Positions 1 to 8,437 of a stretch of 8,437 bases of DNA are shown piece after piece. The DNA is taken from the UHGV virus genome UHGV-1436539; one strand, given 5' to 3'. Under the pieces are notes generated by a model. That model ran no database searches. It worked only from the letters and a program-made list of their open reading frames with translations, and was not told the origin of the DNA. A program made the position numbers and the translations under genes. This DNA is from a virus. How positions within the stretch are numbered: position 1 is the first letter of the stretch; each line of letters starts with the position of its first letter.

Positions 1-140
1 AAATGCCGGTGCATGATCCGTCATCAGAATCCTTTGATTGGGAAACTATCTTTGAAAGCAGTGATCGCTGTGGTGAGACTGTAGCGCGGACATGTCTATT
101 TGGTCAGAGACGGACATCTCAATTTAGCTACTGCAATATG

Positions 141-173
141 AGTGCGCATAATGTACGACTCGTTATGTTGAAA
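141..173 (+). other. Degenerate dif-like XerCD site at the left prophage junction, with expanded central region
   Basis: AGTGCGCATAA-TGTACGACTCG-TTATGTTGAAA. The XerC arm and the first 4 central nt match the canonical dif at 8385-8412 and the XerD arm matches 9/11, but the central region is 11 nt instead of 6. Confidence 0.7.
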
Positions 174-207
174 AGGCCGCTGCGAAAATCGAATCCCGCA
201 GCGGCCT
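174..207. terminator. GC-rich stem-loop, putative (bidirectional) intrinsic terminator downstream of the minus-strand CDS 240-1502; alternatively part of the phage att structure
   Basis: Perfect 11-bp inverted repeat AGGCCGCTGCG (174-184) / CGCAGCGGCCT (197-207) with a 12-nt loop. Only a 3-nt T tract follows on either strand, so terminator function is uncertain. Confidence 0.45.
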
Positions 208-239
208 CTTTAGCATAACGTCATTGTGCGAACCAATAA

Positions 240-1502
240 TTATCCCTCTATTATATTTTCCCTTTCCAATACCTCACGAATTTGTTGGAATACAGCACTT
301 ATATTCCCTTTAGGGAATCTTATTTGCCCTAATCCATTTATGTTGGAGAACTCTTCACATCCGTCTTCAAGAAGAATGATTGCCCGTTCAAAGCCCAGCT
401 TACCTTGAAAAAGTCCTGCTTCATGTATGACATTCATTCTTGCTTGGACTTTTCCTTCTTGAGTTTCATCTTCGGCAGTCATCAAAATAAAGGCAAATGC
501 AGCCTGCTCTAACATTTGATTAAGCCTTGTTATGTTTGTCACCCCGGCAATTGATACTCTATTAAATTCATCATAGGGTTGATGCAATTTATCTTTTATG
601 AAATCTTTAAGTTCAAGCCAAAGCTTTGATTTCCCATGACCAATAAATATATTTATTCCCGCATCTTTTTCACGCATCATCTTCCCCTCTAAGTTATTGA
701 TATGCTTGTATAATTTATCAATAAGTTTTTGTAGTTCATTACAAGATGAGTATGCACCCATAACTTCTGCAACTCGAACCCTGAGATTAATGTGTGGTGG
801 TACTCGTATTCCTTCTTGTAATGCCATGTTATCAGAGCTGGTTACTTGTTTTGGAAGGAAAAGTGACAGAATTTGTTTTTCGGATAAGATTTTGCTGTTT
901 TCAATTTTAGATACTAAGTCTTCTAAAAATTTATCTTCAGGTGGAAGGCTTTTTTTCTGTGCATAATATAATGATAAAGCGTCACTTTTTAAATCGTTAA
1001 ATATTGAATTTACCTCATTTGCTTTTTTAATCTCTTCCAATAAATCTTCTTTAGTTAAGTCACACTTATTTAATATATAATCAGTTATTTGTTCTGGATC
1101 ATATTCTACCCAATCACCTATACTTTTCATTCCCTCGGTTAAATATCCACCCATATTTTGAAATGGGCTGTTAAATCCCCAATCCTTGTTAAACACCGCC
1201 CCAGTCGGAGGTTTTTGCAGGCCATTGTAATAGACCCTTGATTGATAGCCTATAAATGAACCTGACCAAGATTCATCTAGTTTACTGGTTAACGTTAAAA
1301 CTGATGAAAGTTTGCTCACATCATAGTTACTTAGCTTCTTTAACTTATCCATTAAATCAAGGTATTGATTTGCGCTCACTGTGTAATCTCCAAGCCTAAA
1401 ATTTGCACAATTTAAAACGTGCAGTGTAGGTAATACTGCACGTTTGTACCATTCGTGGTACTTAATCCTTTTGTTTGGAAGACATGAGATCTTCTGCTGC
1501 AT
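240..1502 (-). CDS. Two-domain protein: N-terminal domain of unknown function (~aa 1-280) plus C-terminal TIR-like (PF10137-type) putative effector domain; candidate defence or toxin effector
   Basis: Long minus-strand ORF (~420 aa from ATG at 1500-1502; the track's TTG at 1518-1520 would give 426 aa). The C-terminal region (plus-strand coordinates ~306-659) has the motif series IFIGHGKS ... AFAFILMTAEDE ... ARMNVIHEAGLFQGKLGFERAIILLEDG, which matches my recollection of the TIR-like family consensus (FIVHGHD ... FAVVLLTPDD ... RxNVIFELGYFxGKLGRxRV). No strong SD at any candidate start, so the start is uncertain. Confidence 0.6.
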   Translation of the reverse strand: MQQKISCLPNKRIKYHEWYKRAVLPTLHVLNCANFRLGDYTVSANQYLDLMDKLKKLSNYDVSKLSSVLTLTSKLDESWSGSFIGYQSRVYYNGLQKPPTGAVFNKDWGFNSPFQNMGGYLTEGMKSIGDWVEYDPEQITDYILNKCDLTKEDLLEEIKKANEVNSIFNDLKSDALSLYYAQKKSLPPEDKFLEDLVSKIENSKILSEKQILSLFLPKQVTSSDNMALQEGIRVPPHINLRVRVAEVMGAYSSCNELQKLIDKLYKHINNLEGKMMREKDAGINIFIGHGKSKLWLELKDFIKDKLHQPYDEFNRVSIAGVTNITRLNQMLEQAAFAFILMTAEDETQEGKVQARMNVIHEAGLFQGKLGFERAIILLEDGCEEFSNINGLGQIRFPKGNISAVFQQIREVLERENIIEG

Positions 1503-1644
1503 CTTTAGAGTAGTTATCAATCAGATAACCTAAAATCTCTGTCCATGTAATTGTTTTTCCTAGTTTTACACTGGCGTTTATAGCCAGTCGTTCTAGTTTC
1601 ATTTTTCTTTCTTCCGTCACGTTATAAGTCGTGCGCTTTGCCAT
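1462..1644 (-). CDS. Small (60 aa) putative ribbon-helix-helix (CopG/Arc-like) DNA-binding protein; candidate repressor or antitoxin
   Basis: ATG-initiated ORF divergent from gII. The N-terminus MAKRTTYNVTEERKMKLERLA has the basic beta-strand plus helix pattern typical of RHH proteins. It overlaps the 5' end of the downstream CDS 240-1502 (ATG at 1502) by ~40 nt, suggesting an operon. Confidence 0.5.
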   Translation of the reverse strand: MAKRTTYNVTEERKMKLERLAINASVKLGKTITWTEILGYLIDNYSKDAAEDLMSSKQKD

Positions 1645-1813
1645 TTTTTACGCTCGTTCAATGCAATATTTGAAGTGAGTATACATGCTCATGAACTCAT
1701 ATCATCCAATCCTCTTGAACTCACTAGCTCACTGGTGTAATGTTAAAACACTAATGAACTACTGAACTCATGTGTTAGTAAGTCGTCATTTTTGCAATTT
1801 TGAGGATTTATTT
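1645..1813. promoter_or_regulatory. Divergent intergenic control region between the RHH gene and gII, with clustered direct repeats (candidate operators and promoters)
   Basis: TGAACTCA occurs at 1692-1699, 1716-1723 and 1763-1770, with a variant TGAACTAC at 1755-1762, and CTCACT occurs twice in tandem at 1720-1734. Candidate sigma70 elements: TTGAAC (1715-1720), 17 bp, TAATGT (1738-1743) towards gII; TATACT on the minus strand (1678-1683) towards the RHH gene. Promoter calls are weak. Confidence 0.4.
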
Positions 1814-2877: not shown

Positions 2878-3195
2878 ATGTCTAATTATGGTCTTTTCGT
2901 TAAGGGTAAAATGTTGGGAGCCCGCCAACGTAATAAAGTTAATGGTCAGGGCTATTATAATGAAATTGGTATTGGTCTTGAAATACCTGATGGTTTTGGT
3001 GGTACAAAGCAGGATCAAATTATTATTCGAGTTTCTCAAGCTCTCGTTAATGCAGGTCTAATGAACCAGGCGAATGCTTTCATTGGGAAATTAGTTCAAA
3101 TTCCTGTCTATGTCCGTGCATGGTCAATGGAGGGCAGGGAAGGTGTAACTTATAATGTTTCTTCCGATGGTGGCATCGCAGAGATCAAAGGTTAA
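2878..3195 (+). CDS. gV: Putative ssDNA-binding protein pV (assigned by position; sequence divergent)
   Basis: 105-aa ORF between gII and gVII with SD AAGGAAA upstream. Assignment rests on synteny with Ff phages; I do not see clear similarity to Ff gVp. Confidence 0.55.
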   Translation: MSNYGLFVKGKMLGARQRNKVNGQGYYNEIGIGLEIPDGFGGTKQDQIIIRVSQALVNAGLMNQANAFIGKLVQIPVYVRAWSMEGREGVTYNVSSDGGIAEIKG

Positions 3196-3398: not shown

Positions 3399-3641
3399 AT
3401 GAAAATTCTGTCTACTGTTAAATCTAAAGTTGCTCTGGCTTCAACTGCGCTTTTTGTTTCTGCAAGTTCTTTTGCGGCTGAAGGCGCTACAGGCGGTACT
3501 GATTATGCAGGTCAGGCAATGGATGCATTACTGACTCAGGCAAATGATCTCATTGGTAAAGTATGGCCTGTTGTTGTGGCTGTGGTTGGCGCTGGGCTTG
3601 CTATTCGTATTTTCAAAAAATTCTCTTCAAAAGCGGTTTAA
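3399..3641 (+). CDS. gVIII: Major coat protein pVIII precursor (80 aa; predicted 26-aa signal peptide, mature ~54 aa)
   Basis: Signal peptide ends ...SASSFA before AEG..., as in Ff pVIII. It has an acidic N-terminus, a hydrophobic core and a basic C-terminus [12 protein letters not shown], closely matching the Ff/IKe consensus ...FKKF(T/S)SKA. SD GGAG lies 8 nt upstream. Confidence 0.93.
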
Positions 3642-3687: not shown

Positions 3688-4908
3688 ATGAAAAGGAAAA
3701 TATTAATTCTTTCCGCTGTCCTCATTTCTCCTTTTTCACATGCTGATTCATGGGAAAGCATTACTAAATCTACTTATCAAAGCTCTGCCTACGCTGAAAG
3801 TAAGCAAATAACCAATCAGGATGGCTCTAAGACAACGGTTTACTATATTGATGCTGCTATGCAGGCCTCCGCTTGTCAGGGTGCTAAATCCAGTGCTCAG
3901 AGTGTATTTACTCAGGTTAAACTAACTTATGAGGGTATCTGGCCTGATTCTGAATTCCGTCTTGTTTTTACTGGTGATTGTACTTACAGCGATTCACCAG
4001 GGCAGAAGGATAAATATTGGTCTTTAACGGCTTATATTGTTGGTGATATTCAGCGTTCTGTTCCTGATGCAAAACCTACTGACCCGACACCAGAAGAAAT
4101 TTGCGAAGCGAAGCCGCCAGAAGAAGGTGTATTTAATAATGTCGATTCATATGATGGTGGTCGCTATATCTACTATAACGGCTGTGAATATGAGGCTACT
4201 GGTGTCATTGTTTGTCAGAATGATGGTACTGTTTGTGCTGCTACATGGAAGCCTACAGGGAGCGTAGCAGATCCATCTGATAAACCTTCAACTCCTCAAA
4301 ATGGCGGTGGTGAATCTGGCGGTGGTGAATCTGGCGGCGGTGAATCCGGTGGCGGTAGTTCTGGCGGTGGTTCCAGTGGTTCCAGTCTTTCTAAAGGTGA
4401 TATTCAGACTGCTATCGAAGGTGCTTCACCCAAAATAGCCAGCGATATTCATGATAAATTAACAGAGAAAGATACATCCTCAGATGATAAAAAATATGCT
4501 GATGAACAGACAAATAATAATATATTACGTCTGGATGATTCCTTAAATAACCTTACCCGTGGAGCGGGGCGTTTTGCTGACCCTTCTGGCGGTGATTCAC
4601 GCTATGGAAAGGGCGATTCTGAACTAGATTCTGCTTCAACTTTGGCAGATTCCGAATTAGGGATAGCAAAAGATTCGCATGGTGCTTTATGGGAAGCATT
4701 TTTAAATAAAGATGCTATGCTTCCTAACTTACCCAATGGTAACGGCTGCTCTGATTTTATTATTTTCCCCGGGGAGGTTTATCAGATTGATATTGGTTGC
4801 GATAAATTACTGACTATTAAAGATGTTCTTTCATGGGTTTTTTATTGCCTTACGTTCTGGTATGTCTTTACTTCTTTAACTTCATTGCTTCGTAAAGGGG
4901 GTGAGTGA
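3688..4908 (+). CDS. gIII: Attachment/adsorption protein pIII (406 aa) with signal peptide, N-terminal putative receptor-binding domain, N1-like TolA-binding domain, Gly-rich linker and C-terminal membrane anchor
   Basis: Signal peptide [47 protein letters not shown] resembles the Ff N1 segment YANYEGCLWNATGVVVCTGDETQCYGTW. Linker (GGGES)3(GGGSS) and a hydrophobic C-terminus are present. The ATG at 3688 is chosen over the upstream alternative start of the track ORF, which overlaps gVIII. Confidence 0.9.
4303..4386 (+). repeat. Tandem 15-bp coding repeats (GGCGGTGGTGAATCT-like, about five and a half units) encoding the Gly/Ser/Glu-rich pIII linker
   Basis: Near-identical 15-nt units are directly visible, translating to [25 protein letters not shown]. 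Confidence 0.85.
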
Positions 4909-5249
4909 TGCCTTTATTGTTAGGTATTCCTGCATTGTTGCGTTTTCTCATTGGTCTTGTCCCTTTGTTTATTGGCTATGTGGCGAGTTTTTTAGCTCGA
5001 CTTGCTACCAAAACAGGATTAATCGCCTTTGCATTGGTCGCACTAATTACAACAACTGTTACGCTTTTAATGCAGTACCTTGCTGAGGTCATGTATAACG
5101 GTTTACCTGCTGATTTCTCTCATTTAATGGCATCTGTATTACCTGACCATTTTCAGGCGTGTGTTAACGTTATTATGGTTACTCGTATCAGTGTTTTTGT
5201 TTTCGATTTAAAACAAAAATTCCTTGATTATGCAAACAGGGTGATTTAA
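4908..5249 (+). CDS. gVI: Minor coat protein pVI (113 aa)
   Basis: [13 protein letters not shown]... closely resembles Ff pVI (MPVLLGIPLLLRF...), and ...FDLKQKF resembles Ff FDVKQK. The start overlaps the gIII stop; SD AAGGGGG is present. Confidence 0.9.
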   Translation: MPLLLGIPALLRFLIGLVPLFIGYVASFLARLATKTGLIAFALVALITTTVTLLMQYLAEVMYNGLPADFSHLMASVLPDHFQACVNVIMVTRISVFVFDLKQKFLDYANRVI

Positions 5250-6344
5250 ATGGCGGTTCATGTAGTAACAGGCAAATTAGGCTCAGGTAAGACACTTGTT
5301 AGTGTTTCCCGAATACAGGAAAGACTTGCTAAGGGTTGTCCTGTTGCCACTAATCTTGATCTTAAATTGCATAATATGCCTATGGTTGGTCGTTATGCGA
5401 AAAAAACGCGCGTTATTCGCGTTCCTGATAAGCCTTCATTAAATGATTTACTGGCTATTGGTATTGGGAATACATCTTACGATGAATCCCGCAATGGCCT
5501 TCTGGTACTTGATGAATGTGGTACTTGGTTTAATTCCCGTTCATGGGGTGATAAAGACAGACAACCTGTTATTGACTGGTTTTTACATGCCCGTAAATTA
5601 GGCTGGGATATTATATTTTTGATTCAGGATATTTCGATAATGGATAAGCAAGCTCGTCTGGCGCTTGCTGAACATGTTGTTTATTGCCGACGTTCAGATA
5701 AATTAAATATCCCTTTTATTGGCTCCATTATGAATTTGGTTTCAGGGGCGCGATTTTCTTTACCAAAAGTACACTTTGGTATTGTTAAGTATGGTGACAA
5801 TATTAACTCAATCACTGTTGATAAGTGGATATATACCGGAAAATCTCTTTATTCTGCTTACAATACCAAACAAGCGTTCACAGATAATTATCCTCATGGC
5901 GCATTTTCGCTTTTGCCTCCATTTATCACACACGGTCAATTTTCTGTTCATAGGGGATTTAATTATTATATGCGCCTCACTAAAATTTATTTCCGTAAAT
6001 CGAATCGTCTTATATTAATGCTTTCTTTTCTGGTGCTGGGACTTGGTCTTGGTTTCTGGTTCCAGTCTGGAAAGAATGTTGATGAAATCACAGCTATTAA
6101 ATCTTCTTATGCTGAACAGGCGAGGGCGGTAACGCCTGATTCGTCCAGTGATTTACCCCGACTTTCTATTAATTCTTTTTCACAACTTGGTTTTGACGTT
6201 TCTGTTACATTTATTGATGCTAAAGGTATGAAATATCAGTATTTTGATTTAATTAAAGATGGTTATTCCGTTGATATTAAAGATGCCTGTCGTATTTTTA
6301 TCAGAAAAGGCCGTTATTTACAGACCGTTACCTGTCAGGAGTAA
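5250..6344 (+). CDS. gI: Assembly ATPase pI (Zot-like, 364 aa)
   Basis: Strong similarity to Ff pI throughout, including MAVxxVTGKLGSGKTLVSV (Walker A), LLVLDECGTWFNxRSW (Walker B region) and DWFLHARKLGWDIIFL. Confidence 0.95.
   Translation: MAVHVVTGKLGSGKTLVSVSRIQERLAKGCPVATNLDLKLHNMPMVGRYAKKTRVIRVPDKPSLNDLLAIGIGNTSYDESRNGLLVLDECGTWFNSRSWGDKDRQPVIDWFLHARKLGWDIIFLIQDISIMDKQARLALAEHVVYCRRSDKLNIPFIGSIMNLVSGARFSLPKVHFGIVKYGDNINSITVDKWIYTGKSLYSAYNTKQAFTDNYPHGAFSLLPPFITHGQFSVHRGFNYYMRLTKIYFRKSNRLILMLSFLVLGLGLGFWFQSGKNVDEITAIKSSYAEQARAVTPDSSSDLPRLSINSFSQLGFDVSVTFIDAKGMKYQYFDLIKDGYSVDIKDACRIFIRKGRYLQTVTCQE
5970..6344 (+). CDS. gXI: pXI-like protein from an internal in-frame start of gI (124 aa, membrane-anchored C-terminal part)
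   Basis: In-frame ATG at codon 241 of gI (MRLTKIYFRK...), the same codon position and local motif as the Ff gene XI start (MKLTKIYLKK). Confidence 0.55.
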   Translation: MRLTKIYFRKSNRLILMLSFLVLGLGLGFWFQSGKNVDEITAIKSSYAEQARAVTPDSSSDLPRLSINSFSQLGFDVSVTFIDAKGMKYQYFDLIKDGYSVDIKDACRIFIRKGRYLQTVTCQE

Positions 6345-6351
6345 TATTATT

Positions 6352-7617
6352 ATGCGCTCTTTTATTATTGCTTTTTTATTTACCTGTTCATTCTGCGTTT
6401 CTGCTGAAACTGTTAATTTAAATAATTCGTCTGTTCGCTCATTTGTTCAGTGGTATTCGTCAAAAACTGGCAAGCCTGTTATTGTTAATCCTGATGTTAA
6501 AGGGAACGTAACCGTATTTAATGCTGATGTTAACCCAACAAATATTGATGATTTCTTTAAGTCTGTTCTCAATGCTAACGGGTTTGTTATGCTTTCCGGT
6601 AATCCTGCGGTTGTCTCTTTGCCGTCTAAATTACCGTCACAAATGGCTTCTGACTCCGGCGACTCTGATAATCAGTCTTATGATTCTTTTCCTTCTGAGC
6701 CATCTTACCAGCCAGTACCTGTGGCGCTTACGGTCAGAAATTTTAAGCTGACAAAAGTTAGATCGTCCGATGTTCAGCAACTGATTAAAATTTATCTTGA
6801 TTCTAATGGTGGTGGTAATGTCGTGGATTATCCAGGCAATAACTCGCTGATTGTTTCTGCGCCTGACGAGCTGCTGCCGGTTCTGTCCGATTTTATCAAT
6901 TCTGTGGATGTTGCCCGCGATCAGGTTCTCATTCAGTCGCTGATGTTTGAAACCAGCTTGTCTGATGGCGTTGATTTATCGTTTGCGGCAGGTTCTGCAT
7001 CCGGTCATAAGGTTGCGGGGGGCTTTAATACTTCTGCACTGGGTAGCGCTCTTTCTACGGCGGGCGGTTCTTTTGGTATTTTTGATGGTAACGTGTTGGC
7101 GCTGTCTCTGCGTGCTGTCCAGAGTAATTCACGCTCTAAGGTGATTTCAACGCCGCGTATTCTTACTCAGTCTGGTCAGACTGGTTACATTTCCGTAGGT
7201 AAGAATGTGCCGTTTATCACCGGAAAGGTAACGGGCGAATCTGCCGGCGTAAATAATCCGTTTCAGACTATCGAGCGTCATGATGTTGGCGTTTCTCTCA
7301 AGGTAACGCCTGTTGTCATGGGTAACGGGCAACTAGTTCTGACTATCGACACTCGCGCTGATTCAATCAGCAATGATGATCAGGCATCCGATATTATTAC
7401 TAATCAGCGCCAGATTCAGACGACAGTCCAGATTAAGGATGGTCAGACGTTGTTATTGGGGGGGCTTATCGATTCATCGTTCAGCAATGCCGAGCGTTCA
7501 GTTCCAGTTATAAGTAAAATTCCTCTTATAGGCTGGATGTTCAGTAGCAAGGCAGACAGCAATGAACAGCGTATTATGTATATTTTGCTTACAGCACATA
7601 TCATTCGTCCACTTTGA
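6352..7617 (+). CDS. gIV: Outer-membrane secretin pIV (421 aa) for phage extrusion
   Basis: Signal peptide MRSFIIAFLFTCSFCVSA. Extensive similarity to Ff pIV, including the C-terminal secretin block VPFITGKVTGESAGVNNPFQTIER, QTLLLGGL and SKIPLIG. ATG at 6352 with SD AGGAG; the upstream track start overlaps gI and is rejected. Confidence 0.95.
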   Translation: MRSFIIAFLFTCSFCVSAETVNLNNSSVRSFVQWYSSKTGKPVIVNPDVKGNVTVFNADVNPTNIDDFFKSVLNANGFVMLSGNPAVVSLPSKLPSQMASDSGDSDNQSYDSFPSEPSYQPVPVALTVRNFKLTKVRSSDVQQLIKIYLDSNGGGNVVDYPGNNSLIVSAPDELLPVLSDFINSVDVARDQVLIQSLMFETSLSDGVDLSFAAGSASGHKVAGGFNTSALGSALSTAGGSFGIFDGNVLALSLRAVQSNSRSKVISTPRILTQSGQTGYISVGKNVPFITGKVTGESAGVNNPFQTIERHDVGVSLKVTPVVMGNGQLVLTIDTRADSISNDDQASDIITNQRQIQTTVQIKDGQTLLLGGLIDSSFSNAERSVPVISKIPLIGWMFSSKADSNEQRIMYILLTAHIIRPL

Positions 7618-7658
7618 TGGATAGCGGGTAGGTGCGTGAGCCCTGCTCGCTATCCATC
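7616..7658 (+). other. Stable hairpin immediately after gIV: candidate packaging signal or gIV transcript terminator structure
   Basis: Perfect 11-bp inverted repeat GATGGATAGCG (7616-7626) / CGCTATCCATC (7648-7658) with a ~21-nt loop and no following T tract. In Ff phages the packaging-signal hairpin lies directly after gene IV. Confidence 0.4.
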
Positions 7659-7686
7659 AAATGGACATTATTGATTGGGGTAACTA

Positions 7687-7995
7687 ATGGATTCTTATGG
7701 GATTTTATCTGCTCTGGCAGAACGAACGATTACAGCGGAAGAAGCAAAAACAATGACACTTGCAGCCAGAAGTTCTTCGGCTCAGGTAAATGAAGCATCA
7801 CTTGCTCTGTTACTGATTGATAATACTCTGGATGCGATCAAAGCAGCTGCCAGTGAAGGGAAAGGATACACTCTACTTCCTTCTTATGAGATTTCTGTAA
7901 AAGCCATTGATTTAGCAGAAGAATTTTTAAGGAAACAATGCGGCTATGTTATTGATAACCAGAATGGCGTAAGGACGGTCTATTGGTTTATATGA
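7687..7995 (+). CDS. Hypothetical protein (102 aa), accessory gene in the prophage right arm
   Basis: ATG-initiated ORF with a weak SD (GGGG) in the otherwise non-coding stretch between gIV and the right dif. I recognise no family. Confidence 0.45.
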   Translation: MDSYGILSALAERTITAEEAKTMTLAARSSSAQVNEASLALLLIDNTLDAIKAAASEGKGYTLLPSYEISVKAIDLAEEFLRKQCGYVIDNQNGVRTVYWFI

Positions 7996-7996
7996 T

Positions 7997-8041
7997 AACC
8001 CCGGACAGTGACAAAACTTGCTTTTGTTAGTGTCAGGGGTT
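7997..8041 (+). other. Long imperfect hairpin (~20-bp stem, 3 mismatches) followed ~20 nt later by a T7 tract (8062-8068); candidate terminator or replication/att-associated structure
   Basis: AACCCCGGACAGTGACAAAAC / TTTTGTTAGTGTCAGGGGTT inverted repeat with a 4-nt loop, visible in the sequence. Confidence 0.35.
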
Positions 8042-8112
8042 GGCCAAGCCGAACAATTCTGTTTTTTTAGCGTTATTGCTGATTCGGCGCGGCAGCATTA
8101 CGAGGAGATAAA

Positions 8113-8346
8113 ATGCAATTTTTCACATCCAGCGATACTGTAATGTTATGTGCGAAGACCTGCGATCGCTGTGGTCGCCATGCGAAGACGGTGGTAGATG
8201 ACATTGAGTTCAATGAGTTTCTGTCTGTTAATCACTTAGCTGGATACGGTTCAATTTTTGGTGACAGTAATCGCTTAAAACTAGATTTATGCCAACATTG
8301 CCTGAAAGACGTCCTGGGCCAGTGGATTACGGTCTGTGACCAATGA
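8113..8346 (+). CDS. Hypothetical small Cys-rich protein (77 aa), putative zinc ribbon
   Basis: Strong SD GAGGAG (8102-8107) 5 nt before the ATG. Cys pattern C-x3-C-x2-C ... C-x2-C (CAKTCDRCG ... CQHC). Function unknown. Confidence 0.55.
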   Translation: MQFFTSSDTVMLCAKTCDRCGRHAKTVVDDIEFNEFLSVNHLAGYGSIFGDSNRLKLDLCQHCLKDVLGQWITVCDQ

Positions 8347-8384
8347 CCGCACCGGTAACGCCAGTTCCCGCCATCCTTACCATT

Positions 8385-8412
8385 GGTGCGCATAATGTAT
8401 ATTATGTTAAAT
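8385..8412 (+). other. dif: Canonical dif site (XerCD chromosome-dimer resolution site) forming the right prophage junction
   Basis: Exact match to the E. coli dif 28-mer GGTGCGCATAA-TGTATA-TTATGTTAAAT as I know it. Confidence 0.85.
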
Positions 8413-8437
8413 TGAGTGTATGTGCGTAAGCAAACCT

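What the first reader, a model, noticed from the sequence alone, without database searches (positions are those of the whole stretch)
7616..8068. Structured non-coding elements where the Ff intergenic region would be: a perfect 11-bp hairpin after gIV and a long imperfect hairpin plus T7 tract
The hairpin at 7616-7658 directly follows the gIV stop, matching the position of the Ff packaging-signal hairpin. The hairpin at 7997-8041 with a downstream T7 run could be a terminator for the 102-aa ORF or an origin-type hairpin. The replication origins and packaging signal of this phage are not otherwise identifiable in the window.
Basis: inference. Interest (0 to 1): 0.4.

Follow-up and report, generated by a model that had tools for sequence, protein, structure and literature searches.

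The report
Inovirus packaging signal and origin-like hairpins
Both hairpins downstream of the secretin gene of this Xer-integrated filamentous prophage are real: the first is a clear relative of the packaging signal of phages IKe and I2-2, and the second is half of a conserved two-hairpin module shared by otherwise unrelated enterobacterial filamentous phages, probably the site where the host starts copying the incoming single strand and not a transcription terminator.

Summary
The window is a UPphi901/CUS-1/YpfPhi-type filamentous prophage flanked by a dif site (8385-8412) and a dif-like hybrid site (141-173). Both reported hairpins exist and fold far better than shuffles.

Hairpin 1 (7607-7666, overlapping the gIV stop) is homologous to the annotated morphogenetic signals of IKe and I2-2. 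It has the same position and a conserved 21-nt apex. It carries the CGGGT..GGTG motif, and 10 of 20 stem pairs covary. It is the packaging signal.

Hairpin 2 (7997-8041) is not a terminator. The T7 run lies in the loop of a second, adjacent conserved hairpin (8043-8093). The ~100-nt two-hairpin element shows compensatory changes, and its G.T pairs point to the + strand. It occurs in phages with different Rep proteins, different structural modules and different neighbouring ORFs. It was not found in the phages that carry the Ff/IKe-type minus-strand origin. It lies between the packaging signal and the plus origin, as the Ff minus origin does. The best guess is a new type of complementary-strand origin, but this is unproven.

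Positions 1415-1461 align with the f1/IKe core origin.

The parts
7607..7666 (+). Packaging (morphogenetic) signal hairpin. Outer stem 7607-7611/7662-7666, C7612 bulge, main stem 7613-7631/7641-7661, T7632 bulge, apex G7633-C7640 and C7634-G7639 with loop GTGA 7635-7638. It overlaps the gIV stop codon at 7615-7617.
   Evidence: ssDNA fold -24.5 kcal/mol, z -8.9. Homologous to the annotated IKe 6141-6196 and I2-2 2260-2330 morphogenetic signals. 10/20 pairs have compensatory changes and 92.8% of cells are paired.
7626..7646 (+). Conserved apex GGGTAGGTGCGTGAGCCCTGC of the packaging signal. It includes CGGGT (7625-7629) followed by GGTG (7631-7634) on the ascending limb.
   Evidence: Columns 26-35 and 38-45 are invariant in the alignment of 9 distinct hairpins including IKe and I2-2. 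The apex pattern was found in 14 inovirus loci of IMG/VR. The CGGGT..GGTG motif of the Ff packaging signal is described in bioRxiv 10.1101/2023.12.30.573655, citing Russel & Model 1989, and is visible in f1.
7687..7995 (+). ORF102 (h1 / YPO2280a homologue, phrog_4115, unknown function). It lies between the two structured elements and is not part of them.
7997..8041 (+). It has a 20-position stem (17 pairs plus 3 non-canonical positions in the window) and loop CTTGC.
   Evidence: In 20 variants, 4 pairs have changes on both sides and 94% of cells are paired. G.T wobbles occur on the + strand only.
8043..8093 (+). Hairpin B of the two-hairpin element. It has a GC-rich stem GCCAAGCCGAA / TTCGGCGCGGC with a conserved AA/GC internal mismatch and a T-rich ~29-nt loop. 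The loop contains the T7 run (8062-8068).
   Evidence: (I4) and the fold. L007 carries two compensatory G-C to A-T changes and repairs the internal mismatch. A C/G co-insertion is seen at columns 62/97 in 6 sequences. The covariance model hits a Citrobacter plasmid copy outside the training set at 70 bits.
8113..8346 (+). ORF77 (h2 / YPO2281 homologue, phrog_5435, CxxC..CxxC, unknown function). It is given as context and is replaced by other sequence in relatives that keep the element.
1415..1461 (+). Plus-strand (viral-strand) origin core, outside the finding. The hairpin D equivalent is 1417-1443 (stem ACGTGCAGT/ACTGCACGT, loop GTAGGTAAT 1426-1434). The nick is inferred by analogy at T1431/A1432. 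TT follows, then the hairpin E equivalent GTACCA-TTCG-TGGTAC at 1446-1461.
   Evidence: 85% identical to I2-2 2667-2712. The alignment with the f1 and IKe core origins shows invariant T-TAATA-TG--AC--TTGT--CA. Fold z = -6.9. It was found only in loci that carry DNA matching this I2-2-like origin/gII block.
141..234 (+). Left prophage junction and phage attP remainder. It comprises a dif-like site (XerC arm 141-151, long central region 152-162, XerD arm 163-173), a GC hairpin (175-184/197-206) and an inverted dif-like site (207-234). It folds as a CTX-type forked hairpin in + ssDNA.
   Evidence: Sequence. The intact attP is seen in the 7,938-bp circular Salmonella episome L051, with fold -31.1 kcal/mol and z -8.0. 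The YpfPhi review describes inverted XerC/XerD sites (PMC4266046).
8385..8412 (+). Perfect 28-bp E. coli-type dif site at the right prophage junction (attR).
   Evidence: Exact match, none expected by chance.

Best explanation
The window is a UPphi901/CUS-1/YpfPhi-type inovirus prophage inserted at a Xer (dif-type) site. Its Ff-like intergenic region has been split up by inserted genes, but the cis elements are still there and in the Ff order. On the circular genome this order is gIV - packaging signal - [ORF102] - two-hairpin element - [ORF77] - attP - [cargo] - plus origin - [repressor-like gene] - gII. (1) Hairpin 7607-7666 is the packaging signal. It forms in the + strand ssDNA and escapes coating by the gV protein. 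It marks the end of the genome where assembly starts, presumably through the gVII/gIX/gI proteins as in Ff and IKe. The homology, position and covariation are shown. The function is inferred. My probability is about 0.85. (2) Hairpin 7997-8041 is one half of a ~100-nt module made of two abutting hairpins (7997-8041 and 8043-8093). The T7 run is part of the T-rich loop of the second hairpin. The module acts on the + strand. It is exchanged horizontally among enterobacterial inoviruses regardless of their Rep protein, capsid/assembly genes or neighbouring ORFs. It therefore most likely depends on host proteins only. I propose that it is the complementary (minus) strand origin. The two stacked hairpins would stay double-stranded on the SSB-coated infecting strand and recruit a host priming enzyme (RNA polymerase as in Ff, or primase/PriA). 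The enzyme would then make the primer for conversion of ssDNA to the replicative form. The structure, conservation, portability and distribution are shown. The priming function is inferred. My probability is about 0.45. (3) Neither hairpin is an intrinsic terminator.
For: Identity of the element: prophages 96-97% identical over about 84% of the window occur in 47 E. coli genomes. A UPphi901 primer from PMC7307601 matches 7711-7730. Gene content is gII/X, gV, gVIII, gIII, Zot-like gI and the gIV secretin. The window has a dif site and a hybrid dif-like site. Packaging signal: the IKe and I2-2 records annotate a morphogenetic signal that overlaps the gIV stop. The window hairpin shares the apex GGGTAGGTGCG..AGCCCTGC with them. 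14 inovirus loci carry the apex after a gIV-like gene end, with differing but complementary lower stems. 10/20 pairs have double changes, 92.8% of cells are paired against 33-44% when slid, and 0/500 shuffles reach this. The CGGGT..GGTG motif is shared with the Ff packaging signal. Two-hairpin element: in E. coli genomes, 118 records match only window 7994-8099. The element is present in UTI89-type prophages with different gIII/gVI/gI/gIV and a different upstream ORF. It is present in A28 and Citrobacter pB72D, whose Rep is a Rep_trans-type 'replication initiation factor'. It is present whether the downstream gene is on the + or - strand. 20 distinct variants show 6 pairs with changes on both sides, 88.7% of cells paired against 31-53% when slid, and 0/500 shuffles. 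The wobble pairs are G.T on the + strand, and the + strand folds better than the - strand (-22.6 vs -18.8 kcal/mol). Orientation relative to the coding strand is the same in every locus. Distribution: the IKe/Ff-type minus-origin hairpins were found only in IKe, I2-2, L010 and L017, which lack the element, and all loci with the element lack the IKe-type minus origin. A structure-aware search with filters off finds nothing in IKe, I2-2, f1, L010, L017, L019 or L020, but finds the untrained Citrobacter copy at 70 bits. L019 and L020 have the same attP but other hairpins, so the element is separable from attP. Position: with the plus origin at 1415-1461, the element lies between the packaging signal and the plus origin, as Ff hairpins B and C do. 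Not a terminator: the consensus scan finds no terminator-like site in 7400-8437, and the tails after both stems lack T-runs.
Against: No experiment bears on either function for this phage family. The UPphi paper does not mention hairpins or a packaging signal, and the YpfPhi review names no packaging signal or origin. For the minus-origin proposal there is no sequence similarity to the Ff/IKe minus origin and no convincing -35/-10 mimic. I saw only a weak (T/A)ACA(A/G)T hexamer at 8052-8057, whose invariant A8053 is also explained by base pairing. The + strand is also the mRNA-sense strand, so the covariation and G.T wobbles fit an RNA element equally well. The mutually exclusive distribution rests on few independent lineages and is confounded with lifestyle, because the element tracks the Xer-integrating phages. 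Most variants are closely related (the effective sequence number of the model is 1.46), so the covariation rests on a handful of events.
Confidence: 0.55

Rival explanations
1. Hairpin 7997-8041 plus the T7 run is a rho-independent terminator that ends the gII-to-ORF102 operon.
For: The hairpin starts 2 nt after the ORF102 stop codon, and a T7 run lies downstream. Megablast homology between the window and the relative L007 breaks after the T-run at 8068.
Against: The T-run begins 20 nt after the stem, and the stem is followed by GGCCAAGCC. The consensus scan finds no terminator in 7400-8437. The T-run lies in the loop of a second conserved hairpin and is interrupted or shortened in relatives. 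The inner stem is A/T-rich. The element is conserved as a ~100-nt unit, including unpaired bases, behind different or no upstream ORFs. L007 does retain hairpin B beyond 8068, with compensatory changes.
Confidence: 0.05
2. The two-hairpin element works at the RNA level on the + sense transcript. It could be a 3'-end stabiliser or processing site, a small RNA, or a 5' regulatory leader for the next gene.
For: The + strand is mRNA-sense. As RNA the element folds at -43.1 kcal/mol, z -4.8. G.U wobbles are well tolerated in RNA. In the window, UTI89 and A28 a small + strand ORF starts 20-30 nt downstream.
Against: In 7CC, WP9 and L007 the next gene is on the opposite strand or is different, so the element cannot be a dedicated leader. 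No Rfam family matches. No promoter-like site was found upstream for an independent small RNA. The complementary distribution with the Ff/IKe minus origin is unexplained by an RNA role.
Confidence: 0.2
3. The two-hairpin element is a binding site for a host factor connected with Xer-mediated integration, or with maintenance of the single-stranded attP substrate, and is not a replication origin.
For: The element co-occurs with the CTX-type attP in nearly all loci, and both are shared across lineages. Both depend on host proteins only. The stem of hairpin B is almost invariant in sequence, including a conserved AA/GC mismatch, which suggests sequence-specific recognition.
Against: L019 and L020 carry the same attP (84-91% identity) without the element. 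The element is separated from attP by 290 nt and a variable ORF in the window. To my knowledge, no accessory site of this kind is described for CTXphi-type integration (own knowledge, not tested).
Confidence: 0.12
4. Hairpin 7607-7666 is only a transcript-end structure for gIV (mRNA stabiliser or rho-dependent termination region) and not the packaging signal.
For: It sits at the 3' end of gIV. As RNA it is very stable (-46.4 kcal/mol). In Ff, transcription ends in this region by a rho-dependent terminator (own knowledge).
Against: The apex is identical to the annotated morphogenetic signals of IKe and I2-2. The CGGGT..GGTG motif of the genetically analysed Ff signal is present. No T-tract follows the stem. 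The apex sequence is invariant while the stem covaries, which points to a recognised sequence and not just to stability. The two roles are not mutually exclusive.
Confidence: 0.07
5. The two-hairpin element is a second or alternative packaging signal, used by the UTI89-type and A28-type capsid modules and merely carried along in this phage.
For: In A28 it lies only ~60 nt after gIV. It is a + strand hairpin structure in the intergenic region.
Against: UTI89-type, A28-type and pB72D-type phages have their own long hairpin at or near the gIV end, in addition to the element. Packaging signals are recognised by phage-specific proteins, yet the element is shared by phages with unrelated gIII/gVI/gI/gIV. 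The window has a bona fide IKe-type signal as well.
Confidence: 0.05

Closest known systems
Morphogenetic (packaging) signal of the Lineavirus phages IKe (NC_002014, 6141-6196) and I2-2 (NC_001332, 2260-2330)
   Same: The position is the same: it starts about 10 nt before the gIV stop. The apex GG(G)TAGGTGCG..AGCCCTGC is identical. It is a long imperfect + strand hairpin with a T bulge below a 2-bp cap and a 4-nt loop.
   Different: The lower stem sequence differs (GATGGATAGC/GCTATCCATC against GAGGGTGCGG/CCCGTATCCTC in I2-2), with compensatory changes. In this phage the signal is followed by a protein-coding gene and not by the minus origin.
Ff (f1/M13/fd) packaging signal, hairpin A
   Same: It lies directly after gIV, is a long imperfect hairpin, and has CGGGT followed closely by GGTG on the ascending limb.
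   Different: There is otherwise little sequence identity. The Ff hairpin is longer (54-78 nt mapped).
Ff/IKe minus-strand origin (hairpins B and C, recognised by E. coli RNA polymerase holoenzyme, which makes a ~20-nt primer; own knowledge, Higashitani et al. 1997)
   Same: Both consist of two adjacent + strand hairpins located between the packaging signal and the plus origin. Both depend (by inference here) only on host enzymes. The distribution is mutually exclusive with the element described here.
   Different: There is no detectable sequence or covariance-model similarity. No clear -35/-10 mimic is seen. Hairpin B here has a large T-rich loop and a conserved internal mismatch. The function is untested.
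Ff/IKe plus-strand origin core (hairpins D and E; gpII nick in CTTT/AATAG). This is relevant to window 1415-1461, not to the finding's hairpins.
   Same: The hairpin has ..GT/AATA.. at the 3' side of the loop, followed by TT and a second short hairpin. 20 of 55 columns are invariant across f1, IKe, I2-2 and the window. The gII protein belongs to the same Pfam families, PF05144 and PF05155.
   Different: The stem sequences differ (ACGTGCAGT against GAGTCCAC). gII is only 21% identical to IKe gII but 56% identical to I2-2 gII. The origin is separated from the packaging signal by ~2.2 kb of accessory genes and attP.
CTXphi-type attP(+) forked hairpin (Val et al. 2005; proposed for YpfPhi in PMC4266046)
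   Same: This phage has such a site, with two inverted dif-like sequences that fold into a long hairpin in ssDNA.
   Different: It lies at 141-234 plus 8385-8395 and is not either of the two hairpins in the finding.
Single-strand origins and ssDNA promoters of other replicons (ssoA of rolling-circle plasmids with its CS-6 TAGCGT loop motif; Frpo of F; G4-type primase sites). All are recalled from memory and are leads only.
   Same: These are folded ssDNA structures recognised by host RNA polymerase or primase. The window's hairpin B loop happens to contain TAGCGT (8068-8073).
   Different: TAGCGT is not conserved among variants (CAGCGT, GAGTGT, TTGCTT). No homology could be tested against these elements with the tools available.

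Membership tests
IKe/I2-2/Ff-type inovirus packaging (morphogenetic) signal | Long imperfect hairpin in the + strand immediately at or after the 3' end of gIV | tested here: met
   The hairpin spans 7607-7666 and the gIV stop is at 7615-7617. dG is -24.5 kcal/mol with z -8.9. In IKe and I2-2 the annotated signals likewise overlap the gIV end.
IKe/I2-2/Ff-type inovirus packaging (morphogenetic) signal | Sequence homology to a mapped or annotated signal, with the structure kept by compensatory change | tested here: met
   The apex is shared with IKe and I2-2 (19 of its 21 nt invariant in the 9-sequence alignment). 10/20 pairs have double changes and 0/500 shuffles reach this.
IKe/I2-2/Ff-type inovirus packaging (morphogenetic) signal | CGGGT closely followed by GGTG on the ascending limb (Russel & Model 1989, as quoted in bioRxiv 10.1101/2023.12.30.573655) | tested here: met
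   CGGGT is at 7625-7629 and GGTG at 7631-7634. f1 has CGGGTGTGGTG.
IKe/I2-2/Ff-type inovirus packaging (morphogenetic) signal | Cognate assembly proteins (gVII, gIX, gI) of the same lineage are present | tested here: met
   gI is ~77% nt identical to I2-2 gI over 5394-5866. A 'tail virion protein G7P-2' gene is annotated in the near-identical UM146 prophage. Zot/gI and the gIV secretin are found by Pfam.
IKe/I2-2/Ff-type inovirus packaging (morphogenetic) signal | Confers orientation-dependent packaging in cis | not testable with these tools
   This needs a phagemid and helper-phage assay.
Rho-independent (intrinsic) terminator | GC-rich stem-loop followed within 0-2 nt by a U/T tract | tested here: not met
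   The scan found 0 terminator-like sites in 7400-8437. Hairpin 1 is followed by ATGGACATTA. Hairpin 2 is followed by GGCCAAGCCG, with the T7 run 20 nt away.
Ff/IKe-type minus-strand origin | Sequence or structure homology to hairpins B/C of f1 or IKe | tested here: not met
   There is no blastn match of the IKe or I2-2 minus-origin segments to the window or to any element-bearing locus. The covariance model of the element finds nothing in f1, IKe or I2-2.
Ff/IKe-type minus-strand origin | Two adjacent + strand hairpins lying between the packaging signal and the plus-strand origin | tested here: met
   The hairpins are 7997-8041 and 8043-8093. The packaging signal is at 7607-7666 and the plus origin at 1415-1461 on the circular map.
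Ff/IKe-type minus-strand origin | Promoter-like -35/-10 mimic in the folded stems, recognised by sigma-70 holoenzyme | tested here: inconclusive
   There is no consensus promoter in the region. By eye there is a weak (T/A)ACA(A/G)T hexamer at 8052-8057, with invariant A8053 and T8057, 16 nt after GTGTCA. This is post hoc, and A8053 is also a stem pair.
Ff/IKe-type minus-strand origin | Directs primer synthesis on SSB-coated ssDNA | not testable with these tools
   This needs an in vitro priming assay or in vivo RF-conversion assay.
Ff/IKe-type plus-strand origin (as a possible identity of the finding's second hairpin) | Nick-site motif T/AATA at the 3' side of a hairpin loop, followed by TTGT and a second hairpin, and co-variation with the Rep type | tested here: not met
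   Hairpin 2 has the loop CTTGC and no such motif. It occurs with both II/X-type and Rep_trans-type Rep genes. The motif is instead at 1415-1461.
CTXphi-type attP forked hairpin | Two inverted XerC/XerD-binding dif-like sequences | tested here: not met
   Neither hairpin of the finding contains dif-like arms. The only dif match is at 8385-8412, and the dif-like sites are at 141-173 and 207-234.

The most novel reading that the evidence does not exclude
The ~100-nt two-hairpin module (7997-8093) is a previously undescribed class of host-recognised complementary-strand origin, or ssDNA priming/promoter signal. It is unrelated in sequence to the Ff/IKe minus origin. It is swapped as a cassette among enterobacterial Xer-integrating inoviruses with different Rep proteins and different capsid/assembly modules.
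Probability: 0.4. Interest if true: 0.6.

Novelty: new variant of a known kind. Interest (0 to 1): 0.45.

Why it matters
UPphi/CUS-1/YpfPhi-type prophages are common in uropathogenic and invasive E. coli, Salmonella, Klebsiella and Yersinia pestis. Their cis-acting signals have not been mapped. The UPphi paper and the YpfPhi review name no packaging signal or origin, and a 2023 preprint states that packaging signals of integrative filamentous phages remain largely unknown.

This analysis gives a complete, testable map: packaging signal, plus origin with a predicted nick site, attP, and a candidate minus origin. Such a map would allow phagemid or helper systems and clean deletion mutants to be built for these phages.

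If the two-hairpin module is a minus-strand origin, it would be a second type of such an origin for E. coli inoviruses. To my knowledge (not checked here), the Ff/IKe-type origin is the only one characterised in E. coli inoviruses. It would also be an example of a host-dependent cis element that moves as a cassette between phage lineages. The first hairpin on its own is an ordinary homologue of a known signal.

Tried and rejected
- Rfam 15 scan of the whole window at E <= 10: nothing at either hairpin, only chance miRNA-like hits on the attP and packaging-signal palindromes.
- Consensus promoter/terminator scan of 7400-8437: no terminator, and one promoter-like hit that is simply the dif site.
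- Genome-contig scan with an ORF102 alignment: one hit only, an apparently contaminated Nanosynbacter MAG contig. Species-level diversity for hairpin 2 therefore had to come from E. coli genomes, IMG/VR and metagenomes.
- blastn of the window's intergenic segments against the IKe and I2-2 intergenic regions: only the packaging signal and the plus-origin block match, and nothing matches hairpin 2.
- Phage GenBank collection search with the element: no match.
- Plasmid collection search: the five matching records include at least two small circular inovirus genomes. No match to a conjugative-plasmid leading region or rolling-circle plasmid sso was seen.
- Literature full-text search for the element's sequence strings: only irrelevant hits.
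- Metagenome scan with the hairpin B pattern: many GC-rich chance hits, and the true hits were the same variant types from gut samples with no new genomic context.
- Ideas considered and dropped:
  - A CS-6-like TAGCGT motif in the hairpin B loop is not conserved.
  - A PriA-site AAGCGG motif: only AAGCCG is present.
  - A G4-type CTG start is not conserved.
  - A dsDNA sigma-70 promoter for ORF77: the hexamers are poor and the downstream gene varies.
  - Hairpin 1415-1443 as a - strand terminator of the repressor-like gene: a T-rich tail is present in the window but absent in I2-2 and L017, while the loop and stem are nearly invariant.
- PMC135385 (Gonzalez et al. 2002, CUS-1) is not held in the library.


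Full report
**What the window is**

The 8,437-nt window carries, on the + strand:
- gII (1772-2866; Pfam PF05144 and PF05155)
- gV (2878-3195)
- gVIII (3399-3641)
- gIII (to 4908)
- gVI (4905-5249)
- a Zot-like gI (5250-6344)
- the gIV secretin (about 6352-7617)
- two small ORFs of unknown function, ORF102 (7687-7995) and ORF77 (8113-8346)

On the - strand it carries a TIR-like cargo gene and a 60-aa repressor-like gene.

A perfect 28-bp dif site lies at 8385-8412, and a dif-like hybrid site lies at 141-173. Prophages 96-97% identical over about 84% of the window occur in 47 complete E. coli genomes. The cargo slot next to the left junction varies among them.

The primer CTGGCAGAACGAACGATTAC, published for UPphi901, matches 7711-7730. 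ORF102 and ORF77 correspond to the YPO2280a/YPO2281 pair of YpfPhi and CUS-1. The window is therefore a UPphi/CUS-1/YpfPhi-type inovirus prophage. Neither the UPphi paper nor the YpfPhi review names a packaging signal or origin.

**Checking the observation**

Both hairpins are real.

Hairpin 1:
- Its arms are 7613-7632 / 7642-7661.
- As + strand ssDNA it folds over 7607-7666 at -24.5 kcal/mol, against -6.6 for shuffles (z -8.9, 0/200).
- The perfect run is 14 bp, not 11 bp.
- The structure starts before the gIV stop (7615-7617) and includes it.

Hairpin 2:
- Its arms are 7997-8016 / 8022-8041, with two mismatches and one G.T pair.
- The region folds with z -5.0.
- The T7 run is at 8062-8068, 20 nt beyond the stem.

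**Hairpin 1 is the packaging signal**

The GenBank records of IKe and I2-2 annotate a 'morphogenetic signal' that overlaps the end of gIV, at IKe 6141-6196 and I2-2 2260-2330. Reading those sequences shows the same apex as in the window: GGGTAGGTGCG(T/C)(G/T)AGCCCTGC.

A scan of IMG/VR with the apex pattern returned 22 loci. Fourteen of them are inoviruses in which the motif sits at a gIV-like gene end. The rest are chance matches without a hairpin.

I aligned nine distinct versions, including IKe and I2-2. The apex is invariant and the lower stem covaries:
- 10 of 20 pairs have changes on both sides.
- 92.8% of cells are paired, against 33-44% when the partner is slid by 1-3 columns.
- No shuffle out of 500 reaches the observed values.

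The ascending limb carries CGGGT (7625-7629) followed by GGTG (7631-7634). This motif is reported for the genetically analysed Ff signal (Russel & Model 1989, as quoted in bioRxiv 10.1101/2023.12.30.573655) and is visible in f1. No T-tract follows the stem, so it is not an intrinsic terminator.

The homology, position and covariation are shown. The packaging function itself is inferred from the relatives.

**Hairpin 2 is half of a portable two-hairpin element**

A sensitive search of E. coli genomes with 7600-8112 gave 49 genomes with the full region. It also gave 118 records that match only 7994-8099, at 80-87% identity.

Those short matches lie in other filamentous prophages:
- The UTI89 type has different gIII, gVI, gI and gIV genes and a different upstream ORF, but a similar gII.
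- The 7CC and WP9 types have a - strand gene next to the element.
- The A28 type, and the circular Citrobacter element pB72D, have a Rep_trans-type 'replication initiation factor' as Rep.

An alignment shows a conserved unit of about 100 nt. It consists of hairpin A (7997-8041), one unpaired G, and hairpin B (8043-8093). Hairpin B has the stem GCCAAGCCGAA/TTCGGCGCGGC with a conserved AA/GC internal mismatch, and a T-rich loop.

On 20 distinct variants the two-helix structure has:
- 6 pairs with changes on both sides
- a co-insertion of C and G at columns 62/97 in six sequences
- 88.7% of cells paired, against 31-53% when slid
- no shuffle out of 500 that reaches the observed covariation

L007 converts the internal mismatch of hairpin B into two pairs and changes two G-C pairs to A-T. 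pB72D has a hairpin A of different sequence but the same shape, joined to a conserved hairpin B. A covariance model that was not trained on pB72D scores it at 70 bits.

Many pairs are G.T on the + strand, which would be C.A on the - strand. The + strand also folds better (-22.6 against -18.8 kcal/mol). The element therefore acts in the + strand, either as packaged ssDNA or as mRNA-sense RNA.

**Not a terminator**

Neither stem of the element is followed by a T-run. The consensus scan finds no terminator in 7400-8437. The T-run is interrupted or shortened in relatives. The unit is conserved regardless of what is upstream.

**Where the other cis elements are**

Window 1416-1461 is 85% identical to I2-2 2667-2712. 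The window gII is 56% identical to I2-2 gII and only 21% identical to IKe gII.

Aligned with the f1 and IKe core plus origins (the IKe stem-loops are annotated as the viral-strand origin), the block has the same architecture to the nucleotide:
- a hairpin whose loop ends in ..GT/AAT(A)
- then TT
- then a second short hairpin

Twenty of 55 columns are invariant (T-TAATA-TG--AC--TTGT--CA). By analogy with the f1 nick in CTTT/AATAG (own knowledge), the nick would fall between T1431 and A1432.

The second hairpin covaries among relatives (GTACCA..TGGTAC against GTCTCA..TGAGAC). The block occurs only in loci that carry the I2-2-like replication module.

The phage attP is of the CTX type. The 7,938-bp circular Salmonella 'plasmid' NZ_CP140410 is the free form of this phage. 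It shows two inverted dif-like sites around a GC hairpin, which fold at -31.1 kcal/mol. This agrees with what the YpfPhi review proposes.

On the circular map the order is gIV - packaging signal - [ORF102] - two-hairpin element - [ORF77] - attP - [cargo] - plus origin - [repressor-like gene] - gII. This is the Ff order A - (B, C) - (D, E), with genes and attP inserted.

**What the two-hairpin element most likely does**

These observations bear on its function:
- It is independent of the Rep type, so it is not the plus origin.
- It is independent of the capsid/assembly module. Phages that have it also have their own hairpin at the gIV end, so it is not the packaging signal.
- L019 and L020 have the same attP but other hairpins, so it is separable from attP.
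- It is always in the same orientation relative to the + strand.
- It was found only in enterobacterial hosts.

A cis element that depends only on host proteins and sits between the packaging signal and the plus origin is what the Ff minus-strand origin is.

The distribution fits this reading. The Ff/IKe-type minus-origin hairpins are found in IKe, I2-2, L010 and L017 and in no locus with the element. The element is found in none of those four phages, by blastn or by covariance model with filters off.

I therefore propose that the element is a complementary-strand origin of a new sequence type. This is inference. The caveats are:
- There is no similarity to the known origin.
- There is no convincing promoter mimic.
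- An RNA-level role fits the covariation equally well.
- The distribution is confounded with the integrative lifestyle and rests on few independent lineages.

I put the origin reading at about 0.45, an RNA-level role at about 0.2, a host-factor or Xer-linked site at about 0.12, and the terminator at 0.05.

**Comparison with known systems and novelty**

Hairpin 1 passes every membership test for the IKe/I2-2/Ff packaging signal that can be run in silico. It is a new member of a known kind.

The two-hairpin element fails the homology test for the Ff-type minus origin, but it shares that origin's position, strand and two-hairpin form. It has no Rfam family and no mention in the literature I could search. 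If it is an origin, it is a new variant of a known kind of element.

**Verdict**

The claim that the origins are not otherwise identifiable is incorrect for the plus origin.

Interest is moderate. The first hairpin is ordinary. The second exposes an undescribed, portable, structured element in a medically relevant prophage family.

Noticed in passing
window 1415-1461: Plus-strand origin core. A hairpin with loop GTAGGTAAT is followed by TT and a second hairpin. It is near-identical to I2-2 2667-2712 and aligns with the f1/IKe nick-site hairpin and gpII-binding hairpin. The predicted nick is at T1431/A1432.
   Followed up: yes
window 141-234 and 8385-8412; L051:2030-2130: CTX-type attP. Two inverted dif-like sites surround a GC-rich hairpin, and the prophage splits them into a hybrid left junction and a perfect dif on the right. 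The free circular form (7,938 bp, filed as a Salmonella plasmid, NZ_CP140410) shows the intact site.
   Followed up: partly
window 240-1520 (- strand): The cargo gene has a C-terminal CAP12/Pycsar-effector TIR-like domain (PF10137, 4.8e-23; PADLOC PDC-S35, PycTIR and TIR effector models). Relatives carry other cargo in the same slot, including a Doc toxin, a PD-(D/E)XK nuclease, STM4504/CBY_0614 and a CxxCx11CxxC protein. The slot looks like a variable defence or addiction-gene slot.
   Followed up: partly
window 1395-1520 (- strand): The maximal 426-aa ORF runs across the plus-origin hairpins. Its residues 7-42 hit a different PHROG (phrog_6875) from the rest of the protein. This probably reflects translation of conserved non-coding origin DNA, and the real cargo start is likely further downstream, for example the ATG near 1352. 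In UM146 the same block is intergenic.
   Followed up: partly
window 1-145 and 8413-8437: The left flank (50-145) matches mostly E. coli plasmids, where it lies next to a plasmid-borne dif-like site (AGTGCGCATAATCTATCTTATGTTAAAT in pEC416_1) beside an ISNCY transposase. The 25 nt to the right of dif differ from the UTI89 chromosomal flank. This copy may therefore not sit at the E. coli chromosomal dif locus.
   Followed up: partly
window 1692-1770: There are four direct repeats, TGAACTCA at 1692-1699, 1716-1723 and 1763-1770 and TGAACTAC at 1755-1762. They lie in the divergent region between the repressor-like gene and gII and could be operator or gII-binding repeats.
   Followed up: no
L019:7820-7930 and L020:7290-7390 (after orientation so that gIV is on the + strand): Two IKe-like, attP-bearing phages have a third kind of conserved hairpin set after the packaging signal (GGCTGCGG..ATGCCCA.AGGGCAT..GGCGG..CCGCC). 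It replaces both the IKe-type minus origin and the two-hairpin element.
   Followed up: no
L003 (I2-2) 2560-2600: I2-2 keeps only a remnant of the IKe-type plus origin: ACTCTTGTTGCAAAATCGCAAC without the nick-site hairpin. Its functional origin is presumably the 2668-2712 block next to its different gII.
   Followed up: partly
window 4303-4371: The glycine-rich linker of gIII ([10 protein letters not shown] repeats) is internally repetitive and varies in copy number between relatives. This shows up as staggered blast hits.
   Followed up: no
L026 (JARKOR010000214.1): A contig assigned to a 'Candidatus Nanosynbacter' MAG carries this enterobacterial prophage region at ~98-100% identity. This is most likely binning contamination.
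   Followed up: no
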